The notes beneath the pieces were generated by a model. The model saw only the letters and a list, made by a program, of their open reading frames with translations, did not search any database and was not told the origin of the DNA. Shown here one piece after another: positions 1,875 through 51,922 of a stretch of 64,000 bases of DNA (position 1 is the first letter of the stretch; every line of letters starts with the position of its first letter). A program made the translations under genes and the position numbers. Location: positions 302,959 to 366,958 of the forward strand of contig CAWGZJ010000005.1 of assembly GCA_963826975.1 (NCBI GenBank). The letters run 5' to 3'. This DNA is from an uncultured Alphaproteobacteria bacterium. Lineage in GTDB: Bacteria > Pseudomonadota > Alphaproteobacteria > Acetobacterales > Acetobacteraceae.

Positions 1875-2261
1875 TTGACTCCGGTCCAAACAGAGGGGGG
1901 GGGTGGGGGGAGGGGTTCGGCGCGGCGTGGACCTTCGGTGGGACCCTGGCACCAACCCCTCCCCCCAACCCCCGCCCTCAAGGGGAGGGGCAGAATGCTT
2001 TGCCCCGGTCCGCCCTTATCCTGATGTCTATGGCGCACCCCTGGCCTCGCGAACACCACGCCTGGCGCGGCGGTGCCGGCCGCGCCATGAGCCTGTCCCG
2101 CGCGTCCGGCCCCCCGCCCCATAGGGTCTTTGTCGCGATTTCGACGTTCGGCGGTCTGCGAGTGGCGCACCGCCGCCCACAAGACGGCCAGCACCATCGC
2201 CAGCCGCGGCGCTATCATACACCTCGCCCGGTTGCGGGCTTGGGCCGCGAAGAGCGGACGA

Positions 2262-48045: not shown

Positions 48046-48428
48046 GCAGCTTTCTGCACACCATGATTCGCGTCGGCGATCTGCAGCGCAGCGTCGATTT
48101 CTACACCAAGGCGTTCGGCATGAAGGAGCTGCGCCGGCGCGACGTGCCGGACGGCAAATACACCCTGGCGTTCGTCGGCTACGGCGACGAGGACAGCAAC
48201 ACCGCGATCGAGCTGACCTACAACTACGGCGTGGAAAAATACGAGATGGGCAGCGCGTTCGGCCATCTGGCGGTTGGCGTACCGGACGTGGCAGCAGCGT
48301 GCCAGATTGCCGCGAGTGCCGGCGGCACGATCACCCGCCCGGCCGGCCCGGTAAAGTTCGGCACCACCATCATCGCCTTCGTGAAGGACCCGGACGGCTA
48401 CCTGATAGAACTGGTCCAGCGCCACTGA
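48042..48428 (+). CDS. gloA: Lactoylglutathione lyase (glyoxalase I)
   Basis: GGAGGAG RBS 7 nt upstream; [16 protein letters not shown]...ELTYNYG...GHLA glyoxalase I signature. Confidence 0.85.
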
Positions 48429-48850
48429 CATCCCCAACGTTCACCTCTCCCGCTCTTCGCGGGAGGTCGAGGCGCGAAGCGACGAGGGTGAGGGCGCGGA
48501 GACCAATATGTCCCACCGCGGCCGCGCCGGTTCGTCAAGGACCCGGACGGCTACCTGATCGAGCTGGTCCAGCGCCACTGACATCCCCAATGTTCACCTC
48601 TCCCGCTCTTCGCGGGAGAGGTCGAGGCGCGAAGCGACGAGGGCGAGGGCGCGGAGACCAATATGTCCCACCGCGGCCGCGCCGGTTCGTCAAGGACCCG
48701 GACGGCTACCTGATCGAACTGGTCCAGCGCCACTGACATCCCCAATGTTCACCTCTCCCGCTCTTCGCGGGAGAGGTCGAGGCGCGAAGCGACGAGGGTG
48801 AGGGCGCGGAGACCAATATGTCCCACCGCGGCCGCGCCGGCCGCCAGGTC
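48421..48850. repeat. Tandem ~153-bp duplication (2.8 units) made of the last 57 bp of gloA plus a family-A repeat element
   Basis: Units start at 48421, 48582 and 48735 and each contains ...GTCAAGGACCCGGACGGCTACCTGATCGAGCTGGTCCAGCGCCACTGA. Confidence 0.85.
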
Positions 48851-49111
48851 ACCCCATTCAACGAAGCCAATCGCCGTTGATCCAGACTAAGGCAGCACCT
48901 TCGCACCGGTATCAGCCTGCCACCATGTGTCTCACCAATCTGATTGCAACCTCGGATCAGCCTGTAGCGCGCCGCACCAACGATCCGGTAGCGCCACGGG
49001 CGACGGCGCGACCGCAGTCGCCACGCGAGGTGCGGACGTTTCTTCCCCGTGTCTCTATAATAAACGTTGCGTGTTCGCGAACCGTCCGCGATTCGCAATG
49101 GGGTGATAGAC

Positions 49112-49678
49112 ATGGACGTGGTCGAACTGTCCCGCCTGCAATTCGGCCTAACGGCGATGTACCACTTCCTCTTCGTCCCCCTGGCCCTAGGCCTAGCCAT
49201 CCTGCTCGCCATCATGGAGAGCATCTACGTCACCACCGGCCGCACCATCTGGCGCGACATCACCAAATTCTGGGGCCTGCTGTTCGGCATCAACTTCGCC
49301 ATGGGCGTCGCCACCGGCCTGACCATGGAATTCGAGTTCGGCACCAACTGGGCCTACTACGCGCACTACGTGGGCGACATCTTCGGCGCCCCCCTGGCGA
49401 TCGAGGGCCTGATGGCCTTCTTCCTGGAAGCCAGCTTCATCGGCCTGTCCTTCTTCGGCTGGAACCGGATGACCCGCGTGCAGCACCTGATCGCCACCTG
49501 CCTGATGGCGATCGGCACCAACCTCTCGGCCCTGTGGATCCTGATCGCCAATGGCTGGATGCAGAACCCGGTCGGCGCGCGGTTCAACATCGCCACCATG
49601 CGCATGGAGGTCACCGACTTCTTCGCCGTCCTGGAGATCAGTTTCCCAGGCTTACAAGTCGAACGGGTAAGGAGGTAG
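49112..49678 (+). pseudogene. cydA: Cytochrome bd ubiquinol oxidase subunit I (CydA), N-terminal ~185 aa only; truncated at ~49640 where sequence composition changes
   Basis: [27 protein letters not shown]...GWNRMT...[10 protein letters not shown] matches the CydA N-terminus; full CydA is ~450-520 aa and no cydB follows. Confidence 0.7.
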
Positions 49679-49845
49679 ATGGTGATCCAATTCGATGCTG
49701 CGCCCGCGGTTTCGATTAGCTACCCGCGCCTGAAGGCCCTCAATTCGTCAGAGATCGACCGGGCGCGAGCTTCGGGTTATGCTGCCGATGACGTGGACCC
49801 AAAGGCGCCTGTCCGACGTGCGGGCTGAATAACTACGACGCCCCA

Positions 49846-50136
49846 ATGCCCGAAGAGGATCTTCGAGATTGGCGCGCACGAATGTATGTCGTTTGGTTCT
49901 GCTATATTTACGAAAATTTCCGAGTCATACATAAACCCCTATTTGCTCTCGAGGAACTTGCATTAGAGTTCAAAGCCCTGTACCTCCTTGATCCGAGATT
50001 TGGCAGTTTATACGCTGGCGCGGGCGGCTTGGAACCTGCGTCGCTCGCTGTGCGAGAAAAACAACTGGAGCTCCTAAAGCCGCTCTATATCAAGGCAATT
50101 CAGTTGCTTGAGACATGGAATACCTCTCATGGCTAG
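49846..50136 (+). CDS. Hypothetical 96-aa protein in a low-GC (~50%) patch
   Basis: ORF with atypical composition; its position immediately upstream of the Rhs-tip fragment is compatible with an orphan immunity-type gene. Confidence 0.3.
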   Translation: MPEEDLRDWRARMYVVWFCYIYENFRVIHKPLFALEELALEFKALYLLDPRFGSLYAGAGGLEPASLAVREKQLELLKPLYIKAIQLLETWNTSHG

Positions 50137-50308
50137 AAAGATGCTTGCTCTGTTAACCCGCATTTGTCACTCAGCGGAGTGTTGGACGTTTCGGCGGCGA
50201 TGAATTGAGCGTTGGACGCGTCGTGTCGTTGGCCGGCGGTTCTGTTCGAAAAAGAGGCCAAACCTGACCGGTTCCAGCATTTTAAAGTCCGAGACAGCGT
50301 TCTGGCGT

Positions 50309-50869
50309 TTGGCTCGGGGGGAAGGAGGTGAACACTTGGGCCGCGCCGCCGGTATCAAGCTATATGCATATGTCGGAAATACCCCGCTGAACCGCATAGA
50401 CCCAGTCGGTCGTTGCGACAATCTATCGGGGTGTGCCGCCGGTTCGAGCGACCAGCTCAATATGGCCGATGAGCCGTCGATCTGGCCTCGCCACGCCGAC
50501 ATCACCGACCACAACCGGCTCAACAACGGCGCACGACGGTGTTCTCCTCTGGAGGTCAACTGGTTGACGGCTTCGAGCCGCAAGCGCAGGTCTCGGTCGG
50601 GCCAATGCTTGCCTTCCTCGAACGCCAGTGCGTCGATGCTGAATTACAGCGCGCACCACGCTGACCAGGACGCCAAGGTTTGGCTGGGCCAACCCTGGGC
50701 CGCGGCGGCACTCCTGATTGAGCTGCCGCAGGCGTTGGTGGTTGCTCGCAGCCAGCACTATATTGCCCCCATGGACACCGCCCCACCCCCCCCCGCGCCA
50801 ACTCAGCCACAATCCGCGTCGACACCCAGGCGGAGACCCGGCGCCGGATCGCCCGGGAGGCCGAAATGA
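50309..50869 (+). CDS. Orphan Rhs/YD-repeat C-terminal tip fragment (LYAYVGNTPLNRIDPVG core-end motif followed by a ~100-aa variable toxin-like domain); 3' part of the ORF is probably read-through
   Basis: The YxYxGNxPLNxxDPxG motif marks the end of Rhs core domains; no upstream Rhs core is present. Confidence 0.5.
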   Translation: MARGEGGEHLGRAAGIKLYAYVGNTPLNRIDPVGRCDNLSGCAAGSSDQLNMADEPSIWPRHADITDHNRLNNGARRCSPLEVNWLTASSRKRRSRSGQCLPSSNASASMLNYSAHHADQDAKVWLGQPWAAAALLIELPQALVVARSQHYIAPMDTAPPPPAPTQPQSASTPRRRPGAGSPGRPK

Positions 50870-50987
50870 TCGCCGAGGCGCGCGCGTCGGCTGCCGCCGG
50901 GCGCGTCGTGTCGTCGGAAGAGGTCGACGCCTGGATCGATAGCCTCGACACGGACCACGAGCGACCGGCACCCCGTTCCGGGCGCTG
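50812..50987 (+). pseudogene. Fragment of a ribbon-helix-helix type antitoxin (C-terminal ...IAREAEMIAEARASAAAGRVVSSEEVDAWIDSLDTDHERPAP)
   Basis: The frame is open back to a stop at 50719 but has no start codon, and no partner toxin gene follows. Confidence 0.35.
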
Positions 50988-51298
50988 AGGCGGTACGAAT
51001 AAGCGCGCACAGTGCGAACGTCACGCGGCTCTCGGGTAGGCTTCCGGCGCCGCAGTTAGCGGCCTCAATCCGTCGGTGTTTTCCGACATGCTATGCGAAA
51101 CTCCCCAGACGTAGTCCCCGTCAGGTTGACGTGCTCCCAGCCGAGCGGCGAAAGGTGGGCAAGCAGATGATCGGGGATGTCCTCGCTCTCCCGCAGAACG
51201 GCCATGGCGCGCTCCATCCTGTGCAATACGCGCTACCTGTAATCCCGCTTGCAAACCTGCTTGCAACCCATCGGAATCCGAACCAATATGGCTGACCG

Positions 51299-51922
51299 AT
51301 GGAGAACCGCATGCACTGCTTTGGCAAGATTCCCGGGATCGCCGTCGGCGCCATCCTGGTCCTATCAGTTTCGACTGGGACGGCATCAGCGGCCTTATTT
51401 GATTGGACCCTTTCCGGCGGCGGCGACACTGGCTCTGGCACGCTGACGACAGGTGCTGCCGACGGCCACGGCTATGATGTTCTCAGTTTTTTGGGGACAA
51501 TAGATGGTCATGCGGTCGCCCTCTCCGGTGGACAACCTGGTCCCGGTGGCAGCGGCTCCCCGGGACCATTCTATTTCGACAATATAATCTATCCTGCTTT
51601 GAATTCCGGGACGCCCAGCTGTGCTGGCGGCAATACCTTCCTCGATGGGTGCGGCATCGCTTTTACGATCGATGGCGGGTACGGAAACATCTTCGATAAT
51701 TATTCTGGAACCGGCACCGGTGCGTACGTTTATTCGATCGTGGCTGCATCAAGTTCCAACAATTTCGATGCTAACTTTGCTATCACGCAAGTTCCGGAGC
51801 CCTCCTCGCTATCGTTGCTCGTTGTTATGGTCGCCGGTCTCGGTCTGATATGTTGGCGCAACCGCCCGCTGTCTGTCCGCCAAGACGGGCCTGGGGGCCA
51901 ATCGCCGAGCATATCGGTGTAG
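51299..51922 (+). CDS. PEP-CTERM sorting domain-containing secreted protein
   Basis: N-terminal signal peptide and C-terminal VPEPSSLSLLVVMVAGLGLICWRNR (PEP motif + TM + basic tail). Confidence 0.7.
   Translation: MENRMHCFGKIPGIAVGAILVLSVSTGTASAALFDWTLSGGGDTGSGTLTTGAADGHGYDVLSFLGTIDGHAVALSGGQPGPGGSGSPGPFYFDNIIYPALNSGTPSCAGGNTFLDGCGIAFTIDGGYGNIFDNYSGTGTGAYVYSIVAASSSNNFDANFAITQVPEPSSLSLLVVMVAGLGLICWRNRPLSVRQDGPGGQSPSISV

What the first reader, a model, noticed from the sequence alone, without database searches (positions are those of the whole stretch)
49846..50990. Orphan Rhs C-terminal toxin tip with candidate immunity ORF and an antitoxin fragment: polymorphic-toxin debris
ORF 50309..50869 begins with ...AGIKLYAYVGNTPLNRIDPVG, the invariant motif that ends Rhs/YD-repeat cores and precedes the variable toxin domain. 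No Rhs core exists upstream, so this is a displaced tip cassette. Such cassettes normally sit in arrays with small immunity genes. The preceding low-GC 96-aa ORF (49846..50136) fits that role for an earlier, lost tip. Just downstream (50812-50987), a frame lacking a start codon ends in ...IAREAEMIAEARASAAAGRVVSSEEVDAWIDSLDTDHERPAP, typical of a ribbon-helix-helix antitoxin C-terminus. The toxin domain after DPVG (~100 aa, ...LNMADEPSIWPRHADITDHNRLNNGARRCSPLE...) has no motif I can place and could be a novel toxin fold.
Basis: partly seen in the sequence, partly recalled or inferred. Interest (0 to 1): 0.6.

Follow-up and report, generated by a model that had tools for sequence, protein, structure and literature searches.

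The report
Decayed Rhs toxin-immunity and antitoxin remnants
This stretch is a small graveyard of broken mobile genes: a frameshifted Rhs immunity gene, a 40-codon scrap of an Rhs toxin gene, a toxin-less antitoxin gene and a transposon stump; it is not a working or novel toxin cassette.

Summary
Real Rhs homology covers only about 40 codons (50336-50458). These hold the core-end motif and the subfamily motif CDNxxGCxxGSSxQL. The Ser/Thr/Pro linker then continues in another frame (50451-50531), so the proposed "novel toxin domain" is an out-of-frame reading, and its only homologues are two near-identical copies of this locus.

The 96-aa ORF is the 3' two-thirds of a ~154-aa gene. That gene starts at 49679 and is frameshifted at ~49823.

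The "antitoxin fragment" is a complete 72-codon RelB3_C-family gene with its ATG at 50770, inside the "Rhs ORF". A poly-C tract (50786-50794) breaks its frame. The tract is C9 here and C9, C10 (in frame) and C11 in four otherwise 99.9%-identical contigs. Its usual ParE toxin partner is missing. A Tn3-family end lies in that position (inverted repeat plus the last 62 codons of tnpA, also frameshifted). The block follows a truncated cydA.

Verdict: ordinary polymorphic-toxin, toxin-antitoxin and transposon debris. The only mild curiosities are the variable poly-C tract and the uncharacterised immunity family.

The parts
49067..49640 (+). 5' fragment of cydA (cytochrome bd oxidase subunit I), truncated after about 190 of ~520 codons. 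It marks the left edge of the debris block.
   Evidence: Pfam Cyt_bd_oxida_I positions 1-168 of 418, E 1.9e-78. NCBIfam PRK15097 positions 2-173 of 522. GC3 falls from 0.97 to about 0.7 after 49620.
49679..49825 (+). N-terminal 48 codons of a ~154-aa gene (the 'ORF154' family, a candidate Rhs-associated immunity protein). In the window this reads as a separate 49-aa ORF ending in TGA at 49826-49828.
   Evidence: tblastn of P0139-P0146: residues 1-48 match 49682-49825 at 42-65% identity. Family alignment.
49822..50136 (+). C-terminal ~104 codons of the same ORF154 gene in a different frame. The frameshift lies at 49822-49825.
   Evidence: tblastn: residues 48-151 match 49822-50133 at 54-61% identity in another frame. 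Homologues are 154-158 aa. The same frameshift is present in five independent contigs.
50336..50458 (+). Rhs core-end fragment (LGRAAGIKLYAYVGNTPLNRIDPVG) followed by the subfamily post-cleavage motif RCDNLSGCAAGSSDQL. Only about 25 codons of core precede DPVG.
   Evidence: Custom Rhs core-end profile, positions 88-115 of 117, i-E 2.2e-9. tblastn of P0123-P0137 at 51-66% identity, E 1e-10 to 1e-15 against the window. phmmer over 1.84 billion representatives matches only query residues 1-56.
50451..50531 (+). Ser/Thr/Pro-rich linker of the Rhs C-terminal region, readable only in a shifted frame (SSIWPMSRRSGLATPTSPTTTGSTTA). This implies a frameshift at about 50459.
   Evidence: P0132 residues 72-88 match at 76% identity, in order with and at the right spacing from the first hit. 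P0137 residues 53-79 match at E 0.004. P0124 and P0123 behave likewise. The segment is low-complexity, so the support is moderate.
50532..50740 (.). Unassigned sequence, possibly the eroded remainder of the tip. No homologue was found in any frame.
   Evidence: tblastx against 80 Rhs loci gave only composition-level noise. tblastn of two candidate peptides against plasmids found nothing significant. Pfam and NCBIfam found nothing.
50309..50869 (+). It is a composite open frame, not a gene.
   Evidence: Its only database relatives are two copies of this same locus (P0001, P0002), whose C-termini differ solely through poly-C tract length.
50770..50988 (+). relB3_C-family antitoxin gene (72 codons when the tract is C10: MDTAPPPPRANSATIRVDTQAETRRRIAREAEMIAEARASAAAGRVVSSEEVDAWIDSLDTDHERPAPRSGR). 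It is out of frame in the window. The homologous module spans 50741-50992.
   Evidence: 173 homologues, mostly 69-72 aa and 63-94% identical among those listed, all carrying PF27535 RelB3_C and mostly starting MDTAP. DNA homology to L003/L005/L007 covers 50741-50992 only.
50786..50794 (+). Poly-C tract in codons 6-8 of relB3_C. It is C9 in the window, which is out of frame.
   Evidence: Tract length is C9 in the window and L092, C10 in L001 (in frame) and C11 in L002. The L091 contig ends at the tract. These contigs are otherwise 99.9% identical. The 98% relative L090 has CTCCCCC, also in frame at this point.
50990..51027 (.). Terminal inverted-repeat-like end of a Tn3-family element. It starts 1-4 nt after the relB3_C stop codon, where homologous loci have parE.
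   Evidence: Nucleotide similarity to the end of a Tn3-family transposon on Roseomonas plasmid CP099473.1 continues past the tnpA stop. The exact boundary is inferred by eye.
51024..51208 (-). Last 62 codons of a Tn3-family transposase gene, itself frameshifted at about 51117.
   Evidence: Pfam DDE_Tnp_Tn3 positions 351-388 of 389, E 8.5e-7. NCBIfam transpos_Tn3 positions 914-950 of 954. tblastn with the Roseomonas TnpA C-terminus: residues 201-231 match 51208-51116 at 77%, and residues 231-262 match 51119-51024 at 56% in another frame.

Best explanation
Window 49640-51290 is a decayed mosaic of horizontally acquired selfish-gene modules lodged in a deletion scar that removed the 3' part of cydA. 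From left to right it holds four remnants. (1) An orphan Rhs-associated immunity gene (ORF154 family) whose toxin tip is gone and which carries a frameshift. (2) The last ~25 codons of an Rhs core with the start of its C-terminal region, frameshifted about 16 codons after the DPxG cleavage motif, with no recognisable toxin domain left. (3) A relB3_C-type antitoxin gene that has lost its parE toxin partner. (4) The terminal repeat and last 62 codons of a Tn3-family transposase, which abut the antitoxin stop codon and probably caused the loss of parE. None of the toxin functions can be expressed. At most, the ORF154 and RelB3_C products could be made in variants with a restored frame. The block is fixed in this lineage, because the same lesions occur in five independent metagenome contigs. 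Directly shown: the homologies, the frames, the frameshift positions and the absence of partner genes in the window. Inferred: the order of events (Rhs array, erosion, Tn3 insertion next to relB3_C, then deletion) and the immunity role of ORF154.
For: Rhs scrap. The core-end profile hits only 50336-50419, and full HMMER over 1.84 billion representatives finds homology only to query residues 1-56. Linker in another frame. ORF154 as one split gene. ORF154 next to Rhs toxins: in L094/L095 a gene with a Pfam RHS_repeat hit, ending ...NLYPYVGGNPLNWIDPGG plus a 135-aa tip, stops 53 bp before P0146. In L081 a 63%-identical tip ORF overlaps by 4 bp a distant ORF154 homologue (hhalign probability 92%, E 5.5e-7). 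relB3_C full length with the MDTAP start. ParE follows 20 bp downstream in homologous loci but is absent from the window. Tn3 remnant and its junction. Truncated cydA. Same lesions in independent assemblies.
Against: The source genome could not be retrieved. A full-length rhs gene that could recombine with or complement this locus cannot be excluded. The genome scan used peptide patterns that this degenerate copy does not itself match. The linker match in the shifted frame is low-complexity. 209 bp (50532-50740) remain unexplained. In one of four near-identical contigs relB3_C is in frame, so that gene may not be dead.
Confidence: 0.8

Rival explanations
1. One reading: a usable orphan Rhs tip cassette encoding a novel toxin fold, kept for recombination with a full-length rhs gene elsewhere in the genome.
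For: A real Rhs core-end motif is present. A strong Shine-Dalgarno-like AGGAGGTGA lies 4 nt before the TTG that gene callers used as the start at 50336 (P0001/P0002). A related MAG carries arrays of orphan tips of this subfamily (L010).
Against: Only about 25 codons of core remain as recombination homology, whereas the L010 orphans keep about 130. The first catalytic Asp position reads E, and the residue after DPVG is R rather than L. The frame breaks at about 50459 relative to homologues. Residues beyond 56 have no homologue. No immunity-like ORF follows.
Confidence: 0.04
2. The frameshifts are sequencing or assembly errors, and the genes (ORF154, Rhs tip, relB3_C, tnpA end) are intact in the organism.
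For: Four frame breaks in 1.4 kb look suspicious, and one of them lies in a C9 homopolymer whose length differs between assemblies.
Against: The breaks at 49823, 50459 and 51117 are identical in every independent contig that covers them: JGI, ENA and Logan assemblies, including a 98%-identical relative. They are not in long homopolymers. Even with the frames restored, the Rhs piece lacks a core and tnpA lacks more than 900 codons.
Confidence: 0.04
3. The poly-C tract is a true slipped-strand switch. It turns an orphan RelB3_C antitoxin on (C10) and off (C9, C11) within the population, for example as an anti-addiction factor against incoming ParE-carrying elements.
For: The tract lies in the 5' coding region. 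It is the only indel among contigs that are about 99.9% identical. Lengths C9, C9, C10 and C11 were observed, and a fifth contig ends exactly at the tract. The ancestral-looking state CTCCCCC in a 98% relative is in frame and not homopolymeric.
Against: Only four informative assemblies exist. Homopolymers of 9-11 C are also where sequencing and assembly miscall lengths. A run of 9 or more C or G is expected about 4 times by chance in 64 kb at this GC (my estimate), and 2 were seen. Two metagenome scans for further copies found none. No ParE gene is in the window.
Confidence: 0.12

Closest known systems
Orphan rhs-CT/rhsI modules downstream of full-length rhs genes (Poole et al. 2011, PMC3150448; Koskiniemi et al. 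2014, PMC3967940)
   Same: A piece of Rhs core end ending in the PxxxxDPxG motif lies detached from any core and is preceded by a small gene of a family found right after Rhs toxin tips. Relatives of this subfamily occur in tandem orphan arrays (L010).
   Different: The known orphans keep enough core homology to recombine, an intact toxin domain and a cognate immunity gene downstream. Here only about 25 core codons remain, the tip is frameshifted and unrecognisable, no immunity gene follows, and no main rhs gene lies within 64 kb.
Orphan immunity genes of polymorphic toxin systems (for example Serratia Rhs immunity orphans, PMC10539506)
   Same: ORF154 stands without its toxin. Several family members elsewhere are also solitary, next to unrelated genes (cupin/dnaE, IS66, Ldh_2).
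   Different: The window's copy is frameshifted. The family has no Pfam or NCBIfam model and no PDB fold match. Its immunity function is inferred from gene order only.
ParE toxin with a RelB3_C-family (PF27535) antitoxin, a type II toxin-antitoxin pair
   Same: The 72-codon gene is 63-94% identical to listed family members, which are followed 20 bp downstream by a 103-aa ParE_toxin gene.
   Different: There is no toxin gene here, the frame is broken by poly-C length, and a Tn3 end occupies the toxin's place.
Tn3-family transposon ends
   Same: The C-terminal tnpA motif HLLAHLSPLGWEHVNLTG is followed by an inverted-repeat-like sequence similar to the end of a Tn3-family element on a Roseomonas plasmid.
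   Different: Only about 220 bp survive, with an internal frameshift. There is no resolvase, no second end and no transposition capacity.

Membership tests
Rhs / YD-repeat polymorphic toxin (C-terminal module) | RHS/YD repeat core forming the shell | tested here: not met
   tblastn with two Rhs cores (L094, L010) hits only 50330-50440. The core-end profile's first 87 positions find nothing in any frame.
Rhs / YD-repeat polymorphic toxin (C-terminal module) | Rhs-associated core end (TIGR03696) ending in the DPxGL autocleavage motif with both catalytic Asp residues | tested here: inconclusive
   The motif is present over TIGR03696 positions 52-75 of 76 (E 0.0018, 18.7 bits against a cutoff of 32.5). 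The custom profile gives i-E 2e-9. In the alignment the upstream 'DP' reads 'EH' and the residue after DPVG is R, not L. The role of the two Asp residues is from my knowledge of TcC/Rhs structures, not tested here.
Rhs / YD-repeat polymorphic toxin (C-terminal module) | In-frame variable toxin domain after the cleavage motif | tested here: not met
   Frameshift at about 50459 relative to homologues. No homologue of the downstream sequence among 1.84 billion representatives. No Pfam or NCBIfam hit.
Rhs / YD-repeat polymorphic toxin (C-terminal module) | Cognate immunity gene immediately downstream | tested here: not met
   Downstream lie 209 bp of unassigned sequence and then relB3_C.
Rhs-associated immunity protein (ORF154 family, unnamed) | Family members encoded directly downstream of Rhs toxin tips | tested here: met
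   L094/L095: 53 bp after an RHS_repeat protein with a 135-aa tip. L081: 4-bp overlap with a 63%-identical tip ORF, hhalign probability 92%.
Rhs-associated immunity protein (ORF154 family, unnamed) | Intact reading frame in this window | tested here: not met
   Residues 1-48 and 48-151 lie in different frames, joined at 49822-49825.
Rhs-associated immunity protein (ORF154 family, unnamed) | Neutralises the cognate toxin | not testable with these tools
   Needs co-expression of the L094 tip with P0146.
RelB3_C antitoxin (PF27535) of ParE toxins | Sequence membership | tested here: met
   173 hits, all carrying precomputed PF27535, best E 1.7e-22. P0002 from this locus carries it too. The local Pfam copy lacks this model.
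RelB3_C antitoxin (PF27535) of ParE toxins | Adjacent ParE/RelE-type toxin gene | tested here: not met
   tblastn of the L003 ParE against the whole window gives a best E of 0.52.
   The only Pfam family on record for members is PF27535, and the proteins are about 71 aa with a variable N-terminus. No structure was predicted.
Tn3-family transposon | Full DDE transposase (~950 aa) and two terminal inverted repeats | tested here: not met
   Only profile positions 914-950 of 954 are present. 62 codons with a frameshift survive. One inverted-repeat-like end.
Phase-variable contingency gene (simple-sequence repeat) | Homopolymer in the 5' coding region whose length varies between near-clonal genomes and toggles the frame | tested here: inconclusive
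   C9, C9, C10 and C11 in four contigs about 99.9% identical. Sequencing artefact cannot be separated from true slippage, and no further copies were found.

The most novel reading that the evidence does not exclude
The C9-C11 tract at 50786-50794 is a real slipped-strand switch. It turns a toxin-less RelB3_C antitoxin on and off within populations of a high-GC soil bacterium. That would be a phase-variable 'anti-addiction' factor against ParE-carrying mobile elements.
Probability: 0.1. Interest if true: 0.45.

Novelty: new member of a known kind. Interest (0 to 1): 0.15.

Why it matters
It matters little for biology at large. It is a worked example of a long open frame in high-GC DNA simulating a 'novel toxin' by running across three unrelated gene remnants. 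Two leads remain. (1) The ORF154 family and the unnamed ~135-aa Rhs tip it follows in L094 and L081 form an uncharacterised toxin-immunity pair. ORF154 has a confident predicted fold with no PDB match. (2) A homopolymer toggles the frame of an orphan antitoxin among near-identical environmental genomes.

Tried and rejected
- Word-indexed search of the 197-aa ORF found only two copies of the same locus.
- Full HMMER over 1.84 billion representatives found homology only to the first 56 residues.
- Pfam and NCBIfam searches of nine frames and ORFs found nothing for the 'tip', ORF96 or the minus-strand ORFs.
- I considered minus-strand or other-frame genes under 50420-50770, because the GC3-like signal there is ambiguous. 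I rejected this: the signal at 50460-50540 is explained by C at codon position 2 of Ser/Thr/Pro/Ala codons in the shifted frame. tblastn of the two most protein-like peptides against plasmids gave nothing.
- I considered that core homology extends upstream to about 50219, from one P0134 alignment. I rejected this because the profile of 87 core ends does not support it.
- I considered the 217-aa P0002 a real fusion protein. I rejected this because family members start at the internal MDTAP.
- The genome-contig scan did not recover the source genome. Its patterns (LYAYV[GHR]NDP, GLCD[NS][PL][QS]GC) do not match this degenerate copy.
- Two metagenome contigs pattern scans for more copies of the poly-C locus found none.
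- Foldseek of the ORF154 model against PDB found no hit with E below 1. The afdb50 library was not available.
- The distant DNA search against plasmids matched only the Tn3 part.

Full report
**1. What is in the sequence**

The region 49500-50500 has GC 0.53-0.56, against 0.62-0.75 in the flanks.

Upstream, the ORF at 49067-49678 is the first ~190 codons of cytochrome bd oxidase subunit I. It covers Pfam positions 1-168 of 418 and PRK15097 positions 2-173 of 522. Homology and the host-like GC3 of ~0.97 both stop near 49640.

Downstream, 51299-51922 encodes a PEP-CTERM protein. The finding therefore sits in a ~1.65-kb block wedged against a truncated housekeeping gene.

**2. The Rhs piece**

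NCBIfam TIGR03696 (Rhs-associated core) matches only its last 24 positions (E 0.0018).

Full HMMER over 1.84 billion representative proteins returned one near-identical copy of this locus (P0001). It also returned 15 Rhs C-terminal fragments that align only to query residues 1-56.

These fragments share ...GRFLQPDPIGYAGGxNLYAYVGNDPLNRTDPLGLCDNPQGCGGGSSNQLI followed by a Ser/Thr/Pro-rich linker.

- tblastn places them on the window at 50306/50336-50458, at 51-66% identity (E 1e-10 to 1e-15).
- A profile I built from 87 Rhs core ends, taken from 80 genome loci, hits the six-frame window once. The hit is at 50336-50419, profile positions 88-115 of 117, i-E 2.2e-9. The preceding 87 positions find nothing.
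- Two Rhs cores used as tblastn queries find nothing else in the 64 kb.
- In the alignment the upstream catalytic 'DP' reads 'EH', and the residue after DPVG is R rather than L.

It continues one frame over, at 50451-50531: SSIWPMSRRSGLATPTSPTTTGSTTA.

- P0132 SGLPTQTTPTTTNSTTA matches at 76% identity.
- P0137 matches at E 0.004.

The segment is low-complexity, but its order and spacing agree with the homologues.

Beyond 50531 nothing matches in any frame.

**3. The 96-aa ORF**

Its homologues are 154-158 aa long. Their first 48 residues (MIQFDAAPPVP...VRRAG) are encoded by the window's 49-aa ORF at 49679-49828. Residues 48-151 are encoded from 49822 in another frame.

This is one gene with a frameshift at 49822-49825.

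The family has no Pfam or NCBIfam model. An AlphaFold2 model of P0141 is confident (pLDDT 86.6, pTM 0.86) and has no PDB fold match.

- In L094 and L095 the preceding gene has a Pfam RHS_repeat hit. It ends ...NLYPYVGGNPLNWIDPGG plus a 135-aa tip, and stops 53 bp before the family member P0146.
- In the Rhs locus L081, a tip ORF 63% identical to the L094 tip overlaps by 4 bp a 167-aa ORF. That ORF is a distant family member (hhalign probability 92%, E 5.5e-7).

Other family members stand alone beside unrelated genes, as orphan immunity genes do. No trace of the cognate tip remains upstream in the window.

**4. The 'antitoxin fragment'**

Its 173 homologues are mostly 69-72 aa long and all carry PF27535 (RelB3_C). 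Most start MDTAP.

A poly-C run at 50786-50794 follows.

- With C10 the gene reads straight through to ...PAPRSGR*. This is the state in JGI contig L001, protein P0002.
- With C9 (the window and L092) or C11 (L002) it is out of frame.
- A fifth contig (L091) ends exactly at the tract.
- These contigs are otherwise 99.9% identical.
- A 98% relative (L090) has CTCCCCC, encoding PLPR, which is in frame at this point and resembles other family members.

Homologous loci carry a 103-aa ParE_toxin gene 20 bp downstream. The window has none.

DNA homology to those loci spans only 50741-50992.

**5. What replaced the toxin**

From about 50990 the sequence resembles the end of a Tn3-family element on a Roseomonas plasmid. 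It has an inverted-repeat-like stretch, then the last 62 codons of tnpA on the minus strand (51024-51208). That remnant is itself split between two frames at about 51117.

**6. Are the frameshifts real?**

The breaks at 49823, 50459 and 51117 are identical in every independent JGI, ENA and Logan contig that covers them, including the 98% relative. Only the poly-C length varies.

**7. Interpretation**

The block is the eroded remains of four things: an Rhs orphan array (immunity gene, then the core end and tip of the next module), a parE/relB3_C pair, a Tn3-family insertion next to it, and later deletions that also took the 3' part of cydA.

The order of these events is inferred, not shown.

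Nothing here can make a toxin. The 186-aa ORF is an artefact of a long open frame in GC-rich DNA.

**8. Comparison with known systems and novelty**

The layout matches the orphan rhs-CT/rhsI arrays described in PMC3150448 and PMC3967940, and the orphan immunity genes in PMC10539506. It fails the tests for a functional member: no core, no in-frame tip and no downstream immunity gene.

Two small leads remain:

- The ORF154 family with its unnamed tip is an uncharacterised Rhs toxin-immunity pair.
- The poly-C tract may be a real phase switch on an orphan antitoxin, or a homopolymer miscall.

Two scans for more copies of the poly-C locus found none. The source genome was not recovered, so the question of a full-length rhs gene elsewhere stays open.

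Noticed in passing
window 48378-48840: Three tandem copies of a ~153-155-bp unit (about 97% identical) lie between the glyoxalase gene and the cydA fragment. They give repeated peptide strings in several ORFs.
   Followed up: no
window 51299-51922: A PEP-CTERM sorting-signal protein gene with low GC (~0.56) starts about 90 bp beyond the last recognisable Tn3 tnpA homology (51208). It may belong to the same foreign block.
   Followed up: partly
window 1895-1903: The only other homopolymer of 8 or more bases in the window is a G9 run. It could serve as a control site for read-level tests of homopolymer length variation.
   Followed up: no
L094 1119-1652 and L081 4360-4749: An unnamed ~135-aa Rhs C-terminal tip (...GQYFVISSGSYFNYSLLLQSEGNLGGQSGIFEYIVPLNSDFFAGNPMLTHQTFIPNAPISG...) has no Pfam hit. 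It is conserved at 63% between two lineages and always followed by an ORF154-family gene. It is a candidate new toxin-immunity pair.
   Followed up: partly
L010 4063-10228: A MAG of an uncultured alphaproteobacterium carries three successive Rhs core-end/tip segments of the same LCDNPQGC subfamily within 6 kb. This is an intact-looking orphan array of the kind the window's scrap probably came from.
   Followed up: partly
L003 185-373 and 1142-1396 (also L004-L006): The relB3_C/parE pairs in related metagenome contigs are flanked by a 62-aa coiled-coil-like ORF upstream and an 84-aa ORF downstream that resembles a serine-recombinase C-terminus. This suggests the toxin-antitoxin pair travels on a small mobile unit.
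   Followed up: no
L090 (whole locus): This ENA contig is 97.9% identical to the window but has 18 gap openings, many in short homopolymers, over 6.1 kb. That is typical of a long-read assembly, so its indels were not used as evidence.
   Followed up: partly
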